A stretch of DNA of 64,000 bases from Escherichia virus TH58: the sequence record MT446423.1, one strand, 5' to 3'. Shown here in pieces: positions 7,155 to 52,604 of the stretch. A program made the position numbers and the translations under genes. Each line of letters opens with the position of its first letter. Position 1 is the stretch's first letter. A model generated the notes under the pieces. The model was not told where the DNA came from. It was given only the letters and a program-made list of their open reading frames with translations, and made no database searches.

Positions 7155-7399
7155 CTAGTTTAGATTCAAAGAAAGTTGTTCTAACTCTTAATGTAAACAA
7201 CGAACGTCTGATATTCATTACCATTTCCGATTTGAACGTTGAAATTGCTAATGGCGTCCGTACTTATCAAACGTCTAAAACACAATGGGACTATATCCCA
7301 ATGTTGACGCTTACTCAGCGTTTAGAATCAATCGGTCTTAAAGACCTTTCAGTAAGTGAAGTGAATTTTATCAAACGCATTGTATCAATCAACCTCTGA
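7151..7399 (+). CDS. hypothetical protein (82 aa)
   Basis: Track ORF, start overlaps upstream stop. Confidence 0.45.
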   Translation: MTSLDSKKVVLTLNVNNERLIFITISDLNVEIANGVRTYQTSKTQWDYIPMLTLTQRLESIGLKDLSVSEVNFIKRIVSINL

Positions 7400-39279: not shown

Positions 39280-39591
39280 ATGGTTTATGTATATGCAATA
39301 GTTTATCGAGATATGGAAGGATTTACTGTCCCGGTTCCACTCGATGAGCATCGTCCTGCAGTATTTTTTAGAAAGGATATTGCAGATAAAGTTTTCGATA
39401 CTTTGAAAACCCAGTATAAAACAGATTTAAAAATGGGAGCTCTAAGAATGGTCGAAACTCCGCGTAAGTTCTGGTTTAATAAGCTTGAAATGAAACACAT
39501 TAAACTAGATGCGGAGACGCAAAAATTGTATCAACGAATCCTGGATACAGGCCGTATTGTTAGTATTCCAATTGCAGGGACTTTACGATGA
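39280..39591 (+). CDS. hypothetical protein (103 aa)
   Basis: Track ORF immediately upstream of dda. Confidence 0.5.
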   Translation: MVYVYAIVYRDMEGFTVPVPLDEHRPAVFFRKDIADKVFDTLKTQYKTDLKMGALRMVETPRKFWFNKLEMKHIKLDAETQKLYQRILDTGRIVSIPIAGTLR

Positions 39592-40901
39592 CATTTGATG
39601 ATTTGACTGAAGGCCAGAAAAACGCCTTCAACGTTGTTATGAACGCTATTAAAGAAAAGAAACATCATGTAACTATTAATGGGCCTGCTGGTACAGGTAA
39701 AACAACCCTTACTAGATTCATCGTTGAAGCCCTTATTTCTTCTGGAGAATCAGGTATTATTTTAGCAGCCCCTACACATGCTGCTAAAAAGGTTCTAAGC
39801 AAACTTGCGGGTCAAGAAGCATCGACTATTCATAGCATTCTTAAAATCAACCCAACTACATACGAAGAAAACGTATTGTTTGAACAGAAAAAGGTTCCCG
39901 ACTTAGCCTTGTGTCGTGTACTGTTATTTGATGAAGCGTCAATGTGCGACCGTTCTCTGTTTAAAATAATGTTAGCTAGTATCCCTAAATGGTGTACAGT
40001 AATTGGAATCGGCGACAGATGCCAGATTCGTCCGGTAGACCCAGGCGAATCAACTGCGTATCTAAGTCCTTTCTTCACTCACAAAGACTTCGTGCAATGC
40101 AACCTTACAGAAGTTAAACGTAGCAATGCACCAATTATTGATGTTGCTACTGATATTCGTAATGGCAAATGGATCTACGATAAAGTAGTTGATGGGCACG
40201 GTGTTCATGGATATACAGACCTTAAATCGTATATGATGAACTATTTTAACGTCGTTAAAACTCCTGAAGACCTTTTCGAAAATCGAATGATGGCATTCAC
40301 AAATAAGTCGGTGGACAAGTTAAATTCAATTATTCGCCGAAAACTTCTTGAAACAGAAAAACCATTTATTAAAGACGAAGTCATTGTTCTACAGGAGCCA
40401 TTTACTAAGACATATAAGCTAGATGGTAAAAATATGACCGAAATGCTTTTCAATAACGGCCAATTCGTTCGTATTCGAGATGCTGTAGAAACGTCTACAT
40501 TCGTTAAAGCACGTGGTGTTTCAGGCGAATATATGATACGATACTGGAATCTTACAGTAGAAACATATGGGGATGATGAAGAATATATCCGTGAAGATAT
40601 AAAGGTTATTTCTTCTGAAGAAGAGCTTTATAAATTTAATTTGTTTTTAGCTAAGACCGCAGAAACATACAAATTTTGGAATAAAGGTGGTAAAGCTCCA
40701 TGGAGCGAATTCTGGGATGCTAAACGTATGTTCACTAAGGTGAAGGCACTACCAGTATCAACTTTCCATAAGGCCCAGGGTATGTCTGTTGACACGGCCT
40801 TTGTTTATACACCGTGTATCCATTATGCTGATTCAGAATTAGCTAAACAGTTATTGTATGTCGGCACAACTCGTGGTCGTTTTGACGTCCATTTTATTTG
40901 A
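39588..40901 (+). CDS. dda: DNA helicase Dda (SF1B)
   Basis: 437 aa; MTFDDLTEGQKNAFN start; Walker A GPAGTGKTT; matches T4 Dda as remembered. Confidence 0.95.
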   Translation: MTFDDLTEGQKNAFNVVMNAIKEKKHHVTINGPAGTGKTTLTRFIVEALISSGESGIILAAPTHAAKKVLSKLAGQEASTIHSILKINPTTYEENVLFEQKKVPDLALCRVLLFDEASMCDRSLFKIMLASIPKWCTVIGIGDRCQIRPVDPGESTAYLSPFFTHKDFVQCNLTEVKRSNAPIIDVATDIRNGKWIYDKVVDGHGVHGYTDLKSYMMNYFNVVKTPEDLFENRMMAFTNKSVDKLNSIIRRKLLETEKPFIKDEVIVLQEPFTKTYKLDGKNMTEMLFNNGQFVRIRDAVETSTFVKARGVSGEYMIRYWNLTVETYGDDEEYIREDIKVISSEEELYKFNLFLAKTAETYKFWNKGGKAPWSEFWDAKRMFTKVKALPVSTFHKAQGMSVDTAFVYTPCIHYADSELAKQLLYVGTTRGRFDVHFI

Positions 40902-40910
40902 GAGAAAATT

Positions 40911-41588
40911 ATGAGCACTGATGTTATTATAGATTTTGAAACATTCGGCAATACATCAAAAGCGGCTGTTATTGACCTTGCGGTTATTGCATATAATTCC
41001 GACCCTGAAGTTGTTGAATCATTTGAAGAACTTGTTCAACGAGGTAAGCGAATTAAATTTAATCTAGCTTCTCAGAAAGGGAAGCGAGTTTTCGCTAAAT
41101 CCACTATGAAATGGTGGAAAGAGCAATCGGCTGAAGCACGTAAAAACTTGGCTCCATCTGAAGACGATGTCACTACGCTTGAAGGCATTAAAATCTTTTT
41201 AGACTATTGCCGAGCTAATAAAGTTGACCAATGGAAATCACAGATGTGGTGCCGTGGTATGAGCTTTGACTTCCCGATCTTGGTCGATTTGATTCGTGAC
41301 CTCTATCGTGATGAAGGTGTTCTTGAACCGGATATTGATACTGATAAATTAGAACCGGTTAAATTCTGGGCTCAACGTGATATTCGTACGGCAATCGAAG
41401 CTTACTCGTTGACACGAGGATTAAGTATGTGTCCATTACCGATGGGTACACTAAAAGGATTCGTTGCCCATGATAGTATTCATGATTGTGCTAAAGATAT
41501 TTTGATGTTAAAATATGCTCAGCGTTATGCGCTTGGTCTTGAAGATGTCCCTGAGAATCCTGACCCGTTAAGTGTAAAACAGCGATAA
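40911..41588 (+). CDS. dexA: exonuclease A DexA (DEDD 3'-5' exonuclease)
   Basis: 225 aa; N-terminal IIDFETFG exonuclease motif; follows dda as in T4. Confidence 0.88.
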   Translation: MSTDVIIDFETFGNTSKAAVIDLAVIAYNSDPEVVESFEELVQRGKRIKFNLASQKGKRVFAKSTMKWWKEQSAEARKNLAPSEDDVTTLEGIKIFLDYCRANKVDQWKSQMWCRGMSFDFPILVDLIRDLYRDEGVLEPDIDTDKLEPVKFWAQRDIRTAIEAYSLTRGLSMCPLPMGTLKGFVAHDSIHDCAKDILMLKYAQRYALGLEDVPENPDPLSVKQR

Positions 41589-41593
41589 AACCA

Positions 41594-41623
41594 GTTTACA
41601 ACCAAGGATGGTTGGAGTATAAT
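41594..41623 (+). promoter_or_regulatory. early promoter (-35 GTTTAC, -10 TATAAT)
   Basis: GTTTAC-aaccaaggatggttggag-TATAAT; near-duplicate of promoter at 42151. Confidence 0.55.
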
Positions 41624-41653
41624 CTTTCTATCTTAACCAAACAGGAAAACATT

Positions 41654-42148
41654 ATGAACATCAATACTACGGCTACTTACATCCTGAAAGACGAAAAACA
41701 AATCAACTGGTACGGTGCTTCAGTGCGAGCTTATGAAAAGTTTTGTGAAATTTTAGGTGCCACTCAAGGTAATAGTTTCACTATTGTTAACTTCATCAAA
41801 CAAGCTGAAGGTCCTTGGTTATTCTTAGAAATTAAAAATTCATATGGTACAATTTCTACTACCGCCCTTCCAAGCACCGACTTTGAACTGTTGATTGAAG
41901 AAGCACCTGTTAAAGATGGTCTCCACTTTGATATGGATATCGCTTGTATGTACGGTACTCTGATTAAGCCTATTGAGCCTACTGATTTGTTGTGTAAAGC
42001 TGTTTCGATTCGTCGTCCGTTTGCAGGTCCAGTGAGTGGATGGGTAACTGATCAGTGGATTGAAGACGGCGTTGAACTTCTGAACGTTGTTCATGCAGGT
42101 GATTTTAGTGTAGTTCCACGTAGTGCTGTGGTTAATATCCTTAATTAA
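41654..42148 (+). CDS. hypothetical protein, tandem paralog 1 of 3 (164 aa)
   Basis: Internal ATG of track ORF 41612-42148; C-terminal domain ..GWVTDQWIEDGVELLNVVHAGDFSVVP shared with next two genes. Confidence 0.5.
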   Translation: MNINTTATYILKDEKQINWYGASVRAYEKFCEILGATQGNSFTIVNFIKQAEGPWLFLEIKNSYGTISTTALPSTDFELLIEEAPVKDGLHFDMDIACMYGTLIKPIEPTDLLCKAVSIRRPFAGPVSGWVTDQWIEDGVELLNVVHAGDFSVVPRSAVVNILN

Positions 42149-42150
42149 TG

Positions 42151-42180
42151 TTGTACATCCAAGGATGGATGGAGTATAGT
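42151..42180 (+). promoter_or_regulatory. early promoter (-35 TTGTAC, -10 TATAGT)
   Basis: TTGTAC-atccaaggatggatggag-TATAGT. Confidence 0.5.
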
Positions 42181-42210
42181 GAATTCAATTTAAACAAAGA
42201 GAGAGAAATT

Positions 42211-42708
42211 ATGATTACTATTGGTGAAATCCTTCGTGTATCTCCTGCTTCTCGTTCTAAAGCTGCAGGTCGTCTGGTTGAAGTAGCAGGGCTTCGTACT
42301 AACGGCATGGGACGTGTTAAAGAAGTTAAAGTTCGAATCATGCCCAGTTTTGGCGGACAAGAGGCCCAGTATGCTTACGTAAGTCCTAAATTCCTGGAAA
42401 AACATATACGAGTCCAATTTGCTTCAAGCGAAGAAGTTGCACCTGCACACTTTGCTTCAAACGATATCGTTGAGCCTACTACACAGTTCAAATGGGCCCT
42501 TTGCAAAGGCGTTGAATTTATAACCGATAAAGAATTTGATTACATCGACGAATACGGTTATCCAAGCAAAACTGATATTATGTGCGGCTTCATTAGTGAC
42601 CAATGGGTTGAAGATGGTAAAAAGTTATACAATATTGTATTTTTAGGTGACTTCCGAGTTGTTGAAGAATCTGAAATCACTCGCTATGTTTCTCCTCGTA
42701 AAGCTTAA
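42211..42708 (+). CDS. hypothetical protein, tandem paralog 2 of 3 (165 aa)
   Basis: Internal ATG of track ORF 42148-42708; N-terminal SPASRSKAAGRLVEV and C-terminal GFISDQWVEDGKKLYNIVFLGDFRVV shared with paralog 3. Confidence 0.5.
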   Translation: MITIGEILRVSPASRSKAAGRLVEVAGLRTNGMGRVKEVKVRIMPSFGGQEAQYAYVSPKFLEKHIRVQFASSEEVAPAHFASNDIVEPTTQFKWALCKGVEFITDKEFDYIDEYGYPSKTDIMCGFISDQWVEDGKKLYNIVFLGDFRVVEESEITRYVSPRKA

Positions 42709-42717
42709 GGAATTATT

Positions 42718-43137
42718 ATGAATATTGCAAATCTCTCTATTGGTGATTATGTACACGTATCAGATGCTTCTCGCTCTAAAGTTGTCGGGAAGTTGGTCGA
42801 AGTTCTTTCTGTGAGTGATCCGGTTTTTGGACGTAACGAAGTTAAAGTTCGTGACGCTGATGGTAACATTGGTTACGTTAAAAGCCAATTCATTGAACCA
42901 GAAGAAAAAGCGTTCAAATGGAAACTGTGCAGATCGGTTTTAGTTGTAAAAGACCATGAATTTACTATTGCTGCTGCAACTGACGGGTCTCCATGGAAAA
43001 CTAAGCAAATAGCCGGATTTATTAGCGACCGTTGGGTAGAAGATGGTGTTAAGCTTTATAACATCGTTTTCGCTGGGCAGTTCATGGTAGTTCCTGAGTT
43101 CCAAATCAAAAAATATTGTCCAGCATCTTTTGCATAA
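42718..43137 (+). CDS. hypothetical protein, tandem paralog 3 of 3 (139 aa)
   Basis: Track ORF; N-terminal SDASRSKVVGKLVEV and C-terminal GFISDRWVEDGVKLYNIVFAGQFMVV. Confidence 0.5.
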   Translation: MNIANLSIGDYVHVSDASRSKVVGKLVEVLSVSDPVFGRNEVKVRDADGNIGYVKSQFIEPEEKAFKWKLCRSVLVVKDHEFTIAAATDGSPWKTKQIAGFISDRWVEDGVKLYNIVFAGQFMVVPEFQIKKYCPASFA

Positions 43138-43141
43138 AGTT

Positions 43142-43170
43142 GTTTACTTCTCCTCTAGATGTGTTACTAT
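43142..43170 (+). promoter_or_regulatory. early promoter (-35 GTTTAC, -10 TACTAT)
   Basis: GTTTAC, 17-nt spacer, TACTAT then AGACCTATCA. Confidence 0.5.
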
Positions 43171-43198
43171 AGACCTATCAAAACAAGAGGAGAATATT

Positions 43199-43426
43199 AT
43201 GAAACGTCAAATCATTAAAAATGTAACTACTGATTCAAACATCGATGAGTTTGAAGATGTTCTGTTTAATCCTGATTTAGTTGTTGTACAGAAAAACTGG
43301 ACCGAATTTTTATGCTACACCGAAGTGGTTTACGTTTACGAAAAACTCGGTGATGAAATGCCTATCTACGGTATCTTCCGTGAAATCACTGAAAACGGTA
43401 CAACTTATTGGAAGGAAACTTACTAA
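43199..43426 (+). CDS. hypothetical protein (75 aa)
   Basis: Internal ATG of track ORF 43130-43426 with AGAGGAGAA SD. Confidence 0.45.
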
Positions 43427-43836
43427 TGGCTAATAAATTCCGCGTTAACTCATGGTACCAATTTATAGATAAACGTGCCCAAGAAGAGTTTATTAAAGAC
43501 CACACTGATAATGGGATTTATGCACGACGTCTTGGCATGGAACCATTTAAAGTATTAGATGTTGACCATCTTGGTCGTCCTACTAAAATTGTGACATCTA
43601 CTGGCATGGTTGGATATGCAACAGGCGGTGATATCCTTGATGAAAACTTTATCTGGCTCTCCACGAATGAAGCAGAGTTCTTTGAAGAAGTTGGAAATCC
43701 ATATCAAGCGTCTGAAGAGCAAGATTCTGGTGAACTTGACGAATTGTCTGAATTTCCTGTGATGACGATTACTATCGAAAATAATGACCAGGCATGGTCT
43801 TTGTATCAAATGTTGAAAGCACATTTTAAGGAATAA
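43426..43836 (+). CDS. hypothetical protein (136 aa)
   Basis: Internal ATG of track ORF 43408-43836. Confidence 0.5.
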
Positions 43837-43838
43837 TA

Positions 43839-44018
43839 ATGCCGTTATACGACTATAAATGCCAATCTGAAGATTGTGGTCATGAATATGAAAAAATTAA
43901 AAGGATTTCTGAACGAGAAAACGATGTTTGCCCTGAATGTCATCGTCTGTCTACTCGTCGGGTTTCTGCTCCTAAACATGTGAACGGTGGTTTTTACGAC
44001 TTACTTAAGAAGGGTTAA
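43839..44018 (+). CDS. small zinc-ribbon protein (59 aa)
   Basis: ORF below track cutoff; YDYKCQSEDCGHEYE .. CPECH two CxxC pairs; ATG just after upstream stop. Confidence 0.4.
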   Translation: MPLYDYKCQSEDCGHEYEKIKRISERENDVCPECHRLSTRRVSAPKHVNGGFYDLLKKG

Positions 44019-44020
44019 TT

Positions 44021-44446
44021 ATGGCTTTTAAAGGTTTTGAAGTTGGTAAGAAATATCGTATTATCAAAGGACAGGAAGATAATTTCTTGAGACTTCTTAA
44101 TACGACTGGTAAACGTCTTAATACTAATCTGCATACTACTTTATTGTCCAAAGATTTTATTGTGGAAAAGATGATTGGTTACGGTGTTTCTGTGATTGCT
44201 GTAGAAGCCGTAGGCGATTATGGCCGAACTATTCATAGTATGCAAGGTGATATTCTGCTTTATGGTGCAGAATTTAAATTCTTTGAAGAAGTTCCGGAAC
44301 CAGATACAGCTGTCGATTTCAAAAAAGGCTCTGTAGAATTTGTTGATGGTTCGGTGATCGTATCAGGTGATGTGGTCATTACAGTTAAAAGTGAACAAGG
44401 GCGTTTGGCTGCAATTGATGCACTTCAGAAAATTAAATTTAAATAA
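44021..44446 (+). CDS. hypothetical protein (141 aa)
   Basis: Track ORF. Confidence 0.5.
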   Translation: MAFKGFEVGKKYRIIKGQEDNFLRLLNTTGKRLNTNLHTTLLSKDFIVEKMIGYGVSVIAVEAVGDYGRTIHSMQGDILLYGAEFKFFEEVPEPDTAVDFKKGSVEFVDGSVIVSGDVVITVKSEQGRLAAIDALQKIKFK

Positions 44447-52574: not shown

Positions 52575-52604
52575 TTGTACAAACTCTTGAGAGCAGAGTA
52601 TAAT
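52575..52604 (+). promoter_or_regulatory. early promoter (-35 TTGTAC, -10 TATAAT) with -10 inside a short hairpin
   Basis: TTGTAC-aaactcttgagagcagag-TATAAT; TGAGAGCA..TGCTCTCA inverted repeat spans the -10; near-identical copy at 8343. Confidence 0.5.

What the first reader, a model, noticed from the sequence alone, without database searches (positions are those of the whole stretch)
41594..43137. Tandem array of three paralogous genes with duplicated promoters
ORFs 41654-42148, 42211-42708 and 42718-43137 share a conserved C-terminal domain (G[FW][IV][ST]D[QR]W[IV]EDG..L.N[IV]V..G.F.VV); the last two also share an N-terminal S.ASRSK..G.LVEV segment. The first two are each preceded by nearly identical early promoters (..ccaaggatgg.tggagTATA.T), so the unit duplicated was promoter plus gene. 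Function is unknown.
Basis: seen in the sequence. Interest (0 to 1): 0.6.

Follow-up and report, generated by a model that had tools for sequence, protein, structure and literature searches.

The report
Known T4-type motB.1–motB–motB-like gene cluster
The three similar genes are real, but they are the already described motB.1 / motB / second-motB early genes of RB69-like T-even phages (small DNA-binding host-takeover proteins), and their look-alike promoters are copies of a dispersed promoter cassette, not evidence that promoter and gene were duplicated together.

Summary
Observation confirmed. ORFs 41654-42148 (g1), 42211-42708 (g2) and 42718-43137 (g3) share a non-low-complexity C-terminal domain (BLASTP E 3e-10, 7e-11, 8e-30). 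All pass Pfam PF17613 (MotB) and are under purifying selection (dN/dS 0.01-0.25). The window is an RB69/Mosigvirus-like T-even phage. The genes lie between dexA and cef, where T4 has motB.2-motB.1-motB. g1 is MotB.1 (different N-terminal domain plus MotB-type C-terminal domain). g2 is MotB. g3 is the 139-aa second MotB copy, RB69 ORF010c. This architecture, and the idea that motB and motB.1 arose by duplication, is published (PMC7827196). T4 MotB is a non-specific DNA-binding, H-NS-associated, toxic early protein. The two promoters are unusually alike (25/31). But the same variant, with a hairpin in its spacer, sits upstream of unrelated genes in relatives. T4-type phages have no promoter before motB.1. 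So "promoter plus gene duplicated" is not supported; a dispersed promoter cassette (PeSL-like) fits better. By-products: the T4 reference motB.1 (119 aa) carries a 1-nt insertion absent from 13 other T4-group records (T4 re-sequencings, T4T, RB55, RB59), where the gene encodes 143 aa. The window also lost motB.2 through a promoter-to-promoter deletion. Low novelty.

The parts
41594..41624 (+). Early sigma-70-type promoter P1 (-35 TTTACA at 41595-41600, 17-nt spacer, -10 TATAAT at 41618-41623). The spacer holds a 6-bp stem / 4-nt loop hairpin, CAACCA-AGGA-TGGTTG, at 41599-41614.
   Evidence: Consensus scan gives 11/12 matches. DNA fold -5.5 kcal/mol, z -4.0. The equivalent site is annotated as a promoter in phage NBG1. 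The same cassette precedes unrelated genes in relatives.
41654..42148 (+). g1, a MotB.1 orthologue (164 aa, pI 4.65). It has an N-terminal domain unrelated to MotB and a MotB.1-type C-terminal domain (..DPTDLLCKAV.IRRPF..GWVTDQWIEDGVELLNVVHAGDFSVVPRSAVVNILN).
   Evidence: phrog_2333 E 1.5e-81 over the full length. PF17613 E 4.4e-9 on residues 88-159 only. 47% identical to the 143-aa T4 MotB.1 cluster representative P0011. AF2 pLDDT 82.6. dN/dS 0.01-0.13.
42151..42181 (+). Early promoter P2 (-35 TGTACA at 42152-42157, -10 TATAGT at 42175-42180). It starts 3 nt after the g1 stop codon. The spacer hairpin CATCCA-AGGA-TGGATG lies at 42156-42171. The two spacer differences from P1 are compensatory within the stem.
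42211..42708 (+). g2, a MotB orthologue (165 aa): basic KOW-like N-terminal domain, 32-aa linker and acidic MotB-type C-terminal domain.
   Evidence: PF17613 E 3.2e-36 over residues 1-160. phrog_1671 E 6e-62. tblastn identity 78.8% to RB69 MotB and about 44% to T4 MotB. Domain charges.
42415..42477 (+). An imperfect 33-nt tandem repeat inside the g2 interdomain linker (QFASSEEVAP / AHFASNDIVEP). It accounts for the 165-aa form here versus the 151-aa form in RB69.
   Evidence: the repeat finder family D2. Length comparison across loci.
42718..43137 (+). g3, a second MotB paralogue (139 aa, orthologue of RB69 ORF010c). It has the same two domains, but a 5-aa linker and a non-basic N-terminal domain. 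It has no promoter of its own: the gap after g2 is 9 nt and the SD sequence AAGGA overlaps the g2 stop codon.
43142..43172 (+). A hybrid early promoter in front of cef. Its 5' half matches the motB.2 promoter of AV111/RB69 and its 3' half plus UTR matches their cef promoter. It marks a deletion of the motB.2 homologue.
   Evidence: Upstream-region comparison. Relatives carry a 174-aa motB.2 gene at this position.

Best explanation
This is the motB.1 - motB - motB-like early-gene cluster of an RB69-like (Mosigvirus-type) T-even phage. It lies in the dispensable dda-dexA...cef-goF-gene 39 region.

Shown here:
- All three products are small two-domain, mostly beta proteins whose C-terminal domain belongs to Pfam PF17613 (MotB).
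- g2 and g3 also share the KOW-like N-terminal domain of MotB. g1 carries a different N-terminal domain, the one reported as LSm-like in T4 MotB.1.
- All three genes are under purifying selection.
- In each of the 25 loci where the position could be read, a motB.1-type gene sits immediately upstream of a MotB-type gene; the 26th, the T4 reference record, carries the frameshifted copy described below. The extra 139-aa copy is present in 9 of the 26 loci surveyed.
- g1 is preceded by a strong sigma-70-type early promoter (P1). g2 and g3 are preceded by a second one (P2). No terminator-like site lies between them, so g2 and g3 can be read from both promoters.

Inferred from T4 experiments:
- g2, and probably g3, are made in the first minutes of infection.
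- They coat DNA without sequence specificity and change how H-NS/StpA sits on DNA. This relieves or remodels H-NS-dependent structures and modestly raises burst size.
- g1 (acidic, pI 4.65) probably does not bind DNA in the same way. More likely it modulates or partners the MotB proteins, or their target, through the shared C-terminal domain.

The resemblance of P1 and P2 reflects membership of a dispersed subclass of early promoter cassettes that carry a hairpin in the spacer. These cassettes are PeSL-like and act as recombination substrates. The resemblance is not a relic of a promoter-plus-gene duplication.
For: - Identity of the locus: megablast gives 95-97% identity to phages F2, ST0, HX01, AV111 and NBG1. 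Annotated relatives show the order dda, dexA, motB.1, motB, motB-like, (motB.2), cef, goF. T4 has dexA, motB.2, motB.1, motB, cef.
- Family hits: PF17613 and phrog_1671/phrog_2333.
- Selection: dN/dS 0.01-0.25. The MotB.1 C-terminal domain has dN 0.10 between the window and T4, lower than Dda helicase at 0.155.
- Census of 26 loci.
- No terminator-like site on the + strand between 41.3 and 43.7 kb.
- Literature: T4 MotB is a non-specific DNA binder, is toxic, copurifies with H-NS/StpA and gives a 2-fold burst effect (PMC6070864). It alters the H-NS footprint and up-regulates host genes. MotB and MotB.1 share the C-terminal domain, and RB69 has two motB plus one motB.1 (PMC7827196). The MotB.1 N-terminal domain is LSm-like, as in GoF and Frd.2, and a motB.1 deletion has no phenotype (PMC12152347).
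- Promoter cassette. PeSL concept: PMC2839356, PMC4122927.
Against: - No experiment exists for this phage or for the g2-type, g3-type or 164-aa g1-type proteins.
- g2 is only about 44% identical to T4 MotB. It is not basic overall (pI 6.2 against 9.2 for T4 MotB) and its C-terminal domain is acidic at net -4. DNA binding equal to that of T4 MotB is therefore not guaranteed.
- The N-terminal domain of g3 has lost the positive charge seen in every first-copy MotB.
- T4 transcriptomes were hardly changed by a motB knock-down (PMC6070864), so the physiological role is still uncertain even in T4.
Confidence: 0.8

Rival explanations
1. A single promoter-plus-gene unit was duplicated in tandem, and the first two genes with their promoters are the two copies.
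For: P1 and P2 are 25/31 identical and 19/20 identical in the core. This is closer than any other promoter pair in the window. A 61-nt direct repeat of 74% identity runs from the -35 element to the ATG, with 557-nt spacing. g1 and g2 share the C-terminal domain.
Against: - The N-terminal two-thirds of g1 and g2 are unrelated.
- The C-terminal domain clades are only about 30% identical, so the split is ancient, while the non-coding spacer is 88% identical.
- The identical promoter variant precedes unrelated phrog_1435 and phrog_2351 genes in other phages. P1 resembles those copies, 5' UTR included, more than it resembles P2.
- T4-type phages have motB.1 without a promoter, and a different promoter before motB.
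- g3, the true full-length duplicate of g2, was copied without any promoter.
Confidence: 0.07
2. The shared C-terminal domain is not the DNA-binding part. It is a common partner-binding or hetero-oligomerisation module, for example for H-NS/StpA or for each other. The variable N-terminal domains (KOW-like, LSm-like and others) supply different nucleic-acid specificities. On this view the three proteins work as a mixed assembly, not as redundant copies.
For: - The C-terminal domain is acidic in g1 (net -2) and g2 (net -4), while the g2 N-terminal domain is strongly basic at +6.
- The MotB.1-type C-terminal domain is 65-98% identical across four or more different N-terminal architectures of 143, 164, 181 and about 250 aa.
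- It evolves more slowly than Dda helicase.
- motB.1 and motB are adjacent in every locus where this could be read.
- Distant relatives combine a KOW-like N-terminal domain with a MotB.1-type C-terminal domain.
- T4 MotB copurifies with H-NS/StpA (PMC6070864).
- MotB.1 runs partly as a dimer (PMC12152347).
Against: - No interaction data exist. The copurification with H-NS may be mediated by DNA (PMC6070864).
- AlphaFold3 gave no confident homomultimers for MotB.1 (PMC12152347).
- In T4, HP3 and the g3-type proteins the C-terminal domain is basic. Charge alone is weak evidence.
- SH3-like and Tudor-like barrels bind nucleic acids as well as proteins.
Confidence: 0.2
3. g1 (MotB.1) acts on RNA through its LSm-like N-terminal domain, as proposed for the GoF/Frd.2/MotB.1 group. 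It is functionally unrelated to MotB despite the shared C-terminal domain. On this view the array is a cluster of convenience in a hyperplastic region.
For: The N-terminal domains of the 181-aa and 248-aa MotB.1 variants hit the goF-like phrog_622 (E 3e-4 and 6e-6). The window gene at 43426-43836 belongs to phrog_622. An LSm-like fold is reported for this group (PMC12152347).
Against: Wild-type GoF and MotB.1 showed no effect in the RNA reporter assay (PMC12152347), although the MotB.1 tested there was the 13.8-kDa truncated form. The strict motB.1-motB adjacency in every readable locus argues for a functional link. g1 itself did not hit phrog_622.
Confidence: 0.15

Closest known systems
T4 MotB (Pfam PF17613, phrog_1671; NP_049626)
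   Same: g2 and g3 have the same two-domain plan: a KOW-like N-terminal domain with the SRSK..G.LVEV motif and a C-terminal domain with the DQWVEDG.KLYN.VF core. They occupy the same position between dexA and cef and are early genes.
   Different: Identity to T4 MotB is only about 44% for g2 and about 47-50% in the C-terminal domain for g3 and g2. pI is 6.2 and 7.7 against 9.2. The g2 C-terminal domain is acidic and the g3 N-terminal domain is non-basic. g3 lacks the 25-30-aa linker. There are two copies here instead of one.
RB69 motB.1 / motB / ORF010c trio (NC_004928; described in PMC7827196)
   Same: Identical gene order and orthology: g3 is 95% identical and g2 85% identical to the RB69 proteins, and g1 is 95.8% identical by tblastn. 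The P1 and P2 promoters are the same.
   Different: The window has an intact 164-aa motB.1, whereas the RB69 record has it split into 132 aa plus 29 aa by two 1-nt insertions. The window g2 linker is longer (165 aa against 151). The window lacks motB.2.
T4 MotB.1 (phrog_2333; LSm-like family with GoF and Frd.2, PMC12152347)
   Same: g1 matches phrog_2333 over its full length and lies immediately upstream of motB. Its C-terminal domain is 82% identical to that of T4 MotB.1.
   Different: The N-terminal domain is strongly diverged (dN 0.72) and g1 is 21 aa longer. The reference T4 protein is truncated by a frameshift. In the window g1 has its own promoter; in T4 it follows motB.2 without one.
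PeSL regulatory cassettes of T4-like phages (PMC2839356, PMC4122927)
   Same: P1 and P2 are conserved early-promoter cassettes with a stem-loop. They lie in a hyperplastic region, recur before unrelated genes and are associated with an indel: the motB.2 deletion with a hybrid promoter.
   Different: The published PeSLs have the stem-loop, a terminator, upstream of the -35 element. Here the hairpin lies inside the spacer between -35 and -10 (or, in other window promoters, around the -10), and no T-run terminator is seen.
Other phage proteins that counter H-NS (recalled from my own knowledge, not tested here: T7 gp5.5, T4 Arn; also the phage protein of PMC8501957)
   Same: Proposed functional class: early phage proteins that alter H-NS-DNA complexes.
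   Different: No sequence or fold relationship was found or tested. MotB acts by binding DNA, not, as far as is known, by binding H-NS directly.

Membership tests
MotB family (Pfam PF17613) | Whole-protein score above the Pfam gathering threshold of 25 bits | tested here: met
   g1 36.8 bits (C-terminal part only), g2 125.1 bits, g3 82.8 bits.
MotB proper (T4 MotB-like, phrog_1671; Category 1 of PMC7827196) | KOW-like N-terminal domain (..SRSK..G.LVEV..) joined to the C-terminal domain, with a full-length profile match | tested here: met
   g2 matches residues 1-165 at E 6e-62. g3 matches residues 5-139 at E 5e-51. The motif is visible. It is NOT met by g1, which matches phrog_1671 only over residues 126-163.
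MotB proper | Position between dexA and cef in the dda-gene 39 dispensable region, downstream of motB.1 | tested here: met
MotB proper | Basic protein (T4 MotB pI 9.2) that binds DNA non-specifically, is toxic when over-expressed and copurifies with H-NS/StpA | tested here: inconclusive
   Only charge could be computed: g2 pI 6.2 (N-terminal domain +6, C-terminal domain -4) and g3 pI 7.7. Binding, toxicity and H-NS association cannot be tested with these tools.
MotB.1 family (phrog_2333; Categories 2 and 4 of PMC7827196) | Full-length match to phrog_2333, a MotB.1-type C-terminal core (PTDLLCKAV..GWVTDQWIEDGVELLNVVHAG) and a position immediately upstream of motB | tested here: met
   g1 E 1.5e-81 over residues 1-164. 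C-terminal domain 79-82% identical to T4, HP3 and pSe MotB.1-type domains. Adjacency in every readable locus.
MotB.1 / GoF / Frd.2 LSm-like fold group (PMC12152347) | N-terminal five-stranded bent antiparallel beta-sheet (LSm/SH3-like) | tested here: inconclusive
PeSL (promoter-early stem-loop) cassettes | Strong sigma-70-like early promoter matching the T-even consensus TTTACW-N17-TAYWAT | tested here: met
   P1 is TTTACA-17-TATAAT. P2 is TGTACA-17-TATAGT, with one mismatch in the -35 element.
PeSL cassettes | Adjacent stem-loop terminator just upstream of the promoter | tested here: not met
   No terminator-like site lies upstream of P1 or P2. Folding of the upstream 45 nt gives nothing above shuffles for P1 (z -0.6). 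The only stable hairpin lies inside the spacer. These are therefore PeSL-like, not canonical PeSLs.
PeSL cassettes | Recurrence at several loci before unrelated genes, and association with indels | tested here: met
   The same variant sits upstream of phrog_1435 and phrog_2351 genes, with four copies in one 121-kb contig. A hybrid promoter marks the motB.2 deletion.

The most novel reading that the evidence does not exclude
The invariant MotB/MotB.1 C-terminal barrel is a dedicated partner-binding or hetero-oligomerisation module. Possible partners are H-NS/StpA or the paralogues themselves. On this reading the acidic MotB.1, the MotB with a basic N-terminal domain and the MotB' with a basic C-terminal domain form a mixed phage 'chromatin' complex. 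Its composition would be tuned by swapping N-terminal domains and linkers. The published T4 MotB.1 work used a frameshift-truncated 13.8-kDa product lacking this module, so the function of MotB.1 would be effectively untested.
Probability: 0.15. Interest if true: 0.55.

Novelty: already known. Interest (0 to 1): 0.22.

Why it matters
The array itself adds little. MotB, MotB.1 and the second MotB copy of RB69-like phages are catalogued, and T4 MotB has been studied biochemically. Three by-products are more useful.

1. Every independent T4 sequence examined encodes a 143-aa MotB.1 with an intact conserved C-terminal domain. The 119-aa, 13.8-kDa reference product stops inside the most conserved motif. 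The negative results reported for "MotB.1" may therefore concern a truncated protein.

2. The MotB.1-type C-terminal domain is one of the most conserved protein segments in this "non-essential" region. It is always paired with motB, which argues for a joint function worth testing.

3. This locus gives a clean example of promoter-to-promoter recombination, with a hybrid promoter and a dispersed hairpin-bearing promoter subclass. That supports the PeSL model in Mosigvirus-type phages.

Tried and rejected
- Chance or low-complexity similarity: rejected.
- Non-coding or spurious ORFs: rejected by dN/dS and by conservation in more than 700 phage records.
- Opposite-strand genes: only ORFs of 84 aa or less, none with support.
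- Structured RNA: only a sub-threshold Y_RNA hit (26.6 bits against a gathering score of 38, E 0.04), judged to be chance.
- Solved structure of a relative: none by sequence.
- motB.2 as a fourth paralogue (AV111 annotates it as 'transcriptional regulator'): rejected. It belongs to a different PHROG (1106) and shows no alignable MotB motif.
- Charge partitioning between g2 and g3 as evidence of subfunctionalisation: only partly upheld. Single-copy MotB proteins of the JS98 type also have neutral or acidic C-terminal domains. The one robust point is the loss of positive charge in the g3-type N-terminal domain.
- Search for the loop-inverted promoter variant seen in AV111 (CCATCCTTGG) in IMG/VR: no hits.
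- Wider distribution of the C-terminal domain: a profile search of 1.84 billion proteins gave only 27 representatives. All are small proteins of 251 aa or less with the domain at the C terminus and no informative fusion partners.
- Canonical PeSL stem-loop upstream of P1 and P2: not found.
Full report
**What is there**

The window region 39.6-44.5 kb is read entirely on the + strand. The genes and their Pfam/PHROG assignments are:

| Gene | Coordinates | Length | Assignment |
|---|---|---|---|
| dda | 39588-40901 | 437 aa | annotated Dda / DNA helicase in relatives |
| dexA | 40911-41588 | 225 aa | exonuclease |
| g1 | 41654-42148 | 164 aa | MotB.1 |
| g2 | 42211-42708 | 165 aa | MotB |
| g3 | 42718-43137 | 139 aa | second MotB copy |
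| cef | 43199-43426 | 75 aa | Cef |
| goF-like | 43426-43836 | 136 aa | phrog_622 |

Megablast of 40900-44100 finds 584 phage records. The best are Escherichia phages F2, ST0, HX01, AV111 and NBG1 at 95-97% identity, so the window comes from an RB69-like T-even phage. In those records the order is dda, dexA, motB.1, motB, motB-like, (motB.2), cef, goF. T4 has dexA, motB.2, motB.1, motB, cef.

**Check of the observation**

- The three ORFs and the shared C-terminal motif are as described.
- BLASTP with compositional adjustment gives g1-g2 E 3e-10, g1-g3 E 7e-11 and g2-g3 E 8e-30, the last at 41% identity over the full length. This is not low-complexity similarity.
- All three pass the Pfam PF17613 (MotB) gathering score. 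g1 does so only through residues 88-159.
- In PHROGs, g2 and g3 are phrog_1671 ('MotB-like transcriptional regulator'). g1 is phrog_2333, with a secondary hit to phrog_1671 over its C-terminal domain.
- Against orthologues in three to five relatives, dN/dS is 0.01-0.13 for g1, 0.21-0.25 for g2 and 0.10-0.21 for g3. All three are functional genes.

**Identity of each gene**

- g1 aligns along its whole length with T4 MotB.1 and is 47% identical to the 143-aa T4-type cluster representative P0011.
- g2 is 78.8% identical to RB69 MotB by tblastn and about 44% identical to T4 MotB.
- g3 is 95% identical to RB69 ORF010c and 88% identical to the 139-aa copy in Salmonella phage pSe_SNUABM_01.
- The C-terminal domains fall into two clades.
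  - The MotB.1-type domain (PTDLLCKAV..GWVTDQWIEDGVELLNVVHAG..) is 65-98% identical across proteins of 143, 164, 181 and about 250 aa with different N-terminal parts.
  - The MotB-type domain (G[FY]I[ST]DQWVEDG.KLYN.VF) splits into T4-type, g2-type and g3-type, each 45-53% identical to the others.
- I surveyed 26 loci: the window, 8 annotated records and 17 IMG/VR loci. In 25 of them a motB.1-type gene lies immediately upstream of a MotB-type gene; the 26th, the T4 reference record, has the frameshifted copy described under "Seen in passing". Nine carry the extra 139-aa copy.
- A profile of the three window C-terminal domains, run against 1.84 billion representative proteins, finds only 27 clusters. 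All are proteins of 43-251 aa with the domain at the C terminus. Pfam recognises nothing else in them.
- Some distant members join a KOW-like N-terminal domain to a MotB.1-type C-terminal domain. This fits a KOW-plus-C-terminal-domain ancestor in which the N-terminal domain of motB.1 was later replaced.

**Structure**

- AlphaFold2 models built with 41-sequence alignments reach mean pLDDT 82.6 for g1 and 83.7 for g3. Both show two mostly beta domains joined by a less confident linker.
- No relative has a solved structure by sequence search.

**What is already known**

- Patterson-West et al. showed that T4 MotB is an abundant early protein that binds modified and unmodified DNA without detectable specificity. 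[quoted passage not shown]
- The follow-up paper showed that MotB changes the H-NS footprint and up-regulates host genes. It described four categories of homologues. [quoted passage not shown] It also reported that RB69 has two motB copies, one motB.1 and a 29-aa peptide (PMC7827196).
- Kim et al. assigned the MotB.1 N-terminal domain to an LSm-like fold shared with GoF and Frd.2, and found no phenotype for a motB.1 deletion (PMC12152347).
- The array in the window is therefore the known RB69-type arrangement.

**The promoters**

- P1 (TTTACA-17-TATAAT, 41595-41623) and P2 (TGTACA-17-TATAGT, 42152-42180) are good T-even early promoters. P1 is annotated as a promoter in phage NBG1.
- They are more alike than the early-promoter consensus requires. 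They differ at 6 of 31 positions, against 10 or more for any other early promoter in the window. The 20-mer CCAAGGATGGNTGGAGTATA occurs only at these two sites, with 0 expected.
- This does not show that promoter and gene were copied together. Exact-pattern scanning of IMG/VR finds the same variant upstream of unrelated genes of about 320 aa (phrog_1435, phrog_2351). One 121-kb contig has four copies.
- In the alignment, P1 matches the phrog_1435 copy through the 5' UTR (..TATAAT-4 nt-CTATCTTAAC..) better than it matches P2. A P2-like variant precedes another phrog_1435 gene.
- In T4, HP3 and pSe_SNUABM_01, motB.1 follows motB.2 with no promoter, and motB has a different promoter (GTTTACAAACTCTTGGGACCAGAGTATAAT). 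A near copy of that one sits at 52575 in the window, in front of something else.
- g3, the only full-length duplicate, has no promoter.
- The spacers of P1 and P2 fold as DNA into a 6-bp stem with a 4-nt loop (z -4.0 and -3.4). The two spacer differences between P1 and P2 (A/T and T/A) are complementary stem positions. AV111 carries the same stem with the loop inverted.
- The best reading is that P1 and P2 belong to a dispersed subclass of early-promoter cassettes. These resemble the PeSL elements that mediate modular shuffling in T4-type phages (PMC2839356, PMC4122927), although the hairpin here is inside the spacer and not an upstream terminator.
- The same locus shows such shuffling directly. 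The promoter in front of cef (43142-43172) has the 5' half of the motB.2 promoter and the 3' half plus UTR of the cef promoter of AV111/RB69. The 174-aa motB.2 gene that lies between them in those phages is missing here.

**Mechanism**

Shown:
- Three early-promoter-driven genes are under selection.
- They encode two-domain beta-barrel proteins of the MotB family.
- No terminator-like site lies between P1 and the end of g3, so g2 and g3 can be read from both promoters.
- g3 follows g2 after 9 nt, with its SD sequence overlapping the g2 stop codon.

Inferred from T4:
- g2, and probably g3, bind DNA non-specifically early in infection and remodel H-NS/StpA-DNA complexes.

Caveats:
- g2 is not basic overall (pI 6.2; N-terminal domain +6, C-terminal domain -4).
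- The N-terminal domain of g3 has lost the positive charge found in every first-copy MotB: net -1 to 0 in all nine 139-aa copies, against +2 to +9 elsewhere.
- g1 is acidic, with pI 4.65.
- The MotB.1-type C-terminal domain is very conserved. Between the window and T4 its dN is 0.10, against 0.72 for its own N-terminal domain, 0.155 for Dda and 0.28 for DexA.
- A rival view is therefore that the C-terminal domain is a partner-binding or oligomerisation module and that the N-terminal domains carry the nucleic-acid contacts. I rate this at about 0.2.

**Seen in passing**

- The T4 reference (NC_000866 / AF158101) annotates MotB.1 as 119 aa ending ..DQWIGRWR. Compared with the window and all relatives it has one extra G in TGGATT(G)GAAGATGG.
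- Thirteen other T4-group records lack that base. They are 10 independent T4 records (KJ477684-6, MT984581, OZ209023, OZ209057, MZ375356, OL964735, OL964745, OZ035787) plus T4T, RB55 and RB59. OL964735 encodes a 143-aa, 16.2-kDa protein with the complete C-terminal domain.
- The 13.8-kDa size quoted for MotB.1 in PMC12152347 equals the mass of the truncated reference product, 13,804 Da.
- The RB69 record has two single-base insertions in motB.1. These produce the 132-aa ORF and the 29-aa 'Category 3' peptide.

**Verdict**

The feature is a known gene cluster, so its novelty and interest are low. The side observations are worth passing on to people who work on T4 early genes.

Noticed in passing
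L003 (T4 NC_000866) 1291-1306 on the minus strand, i.e. T4 coordinates about 7290-7305; compare window 42058-42072: The T4 reference motB.1 (119 aa, 13.8 kDa) has a 1-nt insertion (an extra G in TGGATTGGAAGATGG) inside the most conserved C-terminal motif. Thirteen other T4-group records (10 T4 re-sequencings, T4T, RB55, RB59) lack it and encode a 143-aa, 16.2-kDa MotB.1. Published work on 'MotB.1' quotes 13.8 kDa, which is the mass of the truncated form.
   Followed up: yes
L004 (RB69 NC_004928) 2300-2445: The RB69 reference motB.1 carries two single-base insertions relative to the window, F2 and mar005P1. These split it into a 132-aa ORF and the 29-aa peptide that the literature lists as a separate 'Category 3' MotB homologue. 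This is probably a sequencing error or a laboratory-strain lesion.
   Followed up: partly
window 43138-43198: The motB.2 homologue (174 aa in AV111, RB69, mar005P1 and NBG1) is missing. The remaining promoter is a hybrid of the motB.2 promoter (5' half) and the cef promoter (3' half plus UTR). This indicates a deletion by recombination between two early promoters.
   Followed up: yes
window 41599-41614 and 42156-42171; L002 (AV111) 2198-2217: The spacers of P1 and P2 form a 6-bp / 4-nt-loop DNA hairpin. The two P1/P2 differences are compensatory in the stem. In AV111 the loop is inverted (AGGA to TCCT) and the stem is kept. It is not known whether the hairpin is selected or maintained by quasipalindrome correction.
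   Followed up: partly
window 31365, 51802, 52314, 52575 (+ strand): A second class of early promoters has an 8-9-bp inverted repeat that encloses the -10 hexamer (e.g. GGACTA..TATAGT..TAGTCC). T4 PmotB is of this class, and a near copy of it sits at 52575 in the window in front of a different gene.
   Followed up: partly
window 42415-42477: An imperfect 33-nt tandem repeat lies inside the g2 interdomain linker. Linker length is the most variable feature of the MotB family: 5 aa in g3, 18 aa in RB69 MotB, 32 aa here and 50 aa in the JS98 type.
   Followed up: partly
window 42148-42210: The F2 and AV111 records annotate g2 from an upstream ATG (186 aa) that overlaps the g1 stop codon and lies upstream of P2. 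Alignment with T4, RB69 and NBG1 MotB, and the SD sequence before 42211, favour the 165-aa start.
   Followed up: partly
P0228, P0231, P0236, P0237 (metagenomic proteins): These distant family members combine a MotB-like KOW N-terminal domain (MK..RVYVS.LS.SKVAGE) with a MotB.1-type C-terminal domain (PTDLL..GWVSDQWIEDGVELLN.VH). This suggests the ancestral protein was of this form and that motB.1 later swapped its N-terminal domain.
   Followed up: no
window 41975-42148 compared with L008 (T4) 959-1129: The MotB.1-type C-terminal domain has dN 0.10 between the window and T4. That is lower than Dda helicase (0.155) and DexA (0.28) in the same region. Its dS (0.8-1.1) is also lower than the saturated values of its neighbours. 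This points to strong constraint or more recent exchange of this 56-codon module.
   Followed up: partly
L015 (IMG/VR contig 2974739009) 3734-4773; L009, L010, L011: Paralogous genes of about 320 aa and unknown function (phrog_1435, phrog_2351), with coiled-coil-like C termini, are each driven by the same hairpin-bearing promoter variant as motB.1 and motB.
   Followed up: no
window 41803-41896 (+): A sub-threshold Rfam Y_RNA match (26.6 bits against a gathering score of 38, E 0.04) lies inside the g1 coding sequence. It is most likely chance.
   Followed up: no
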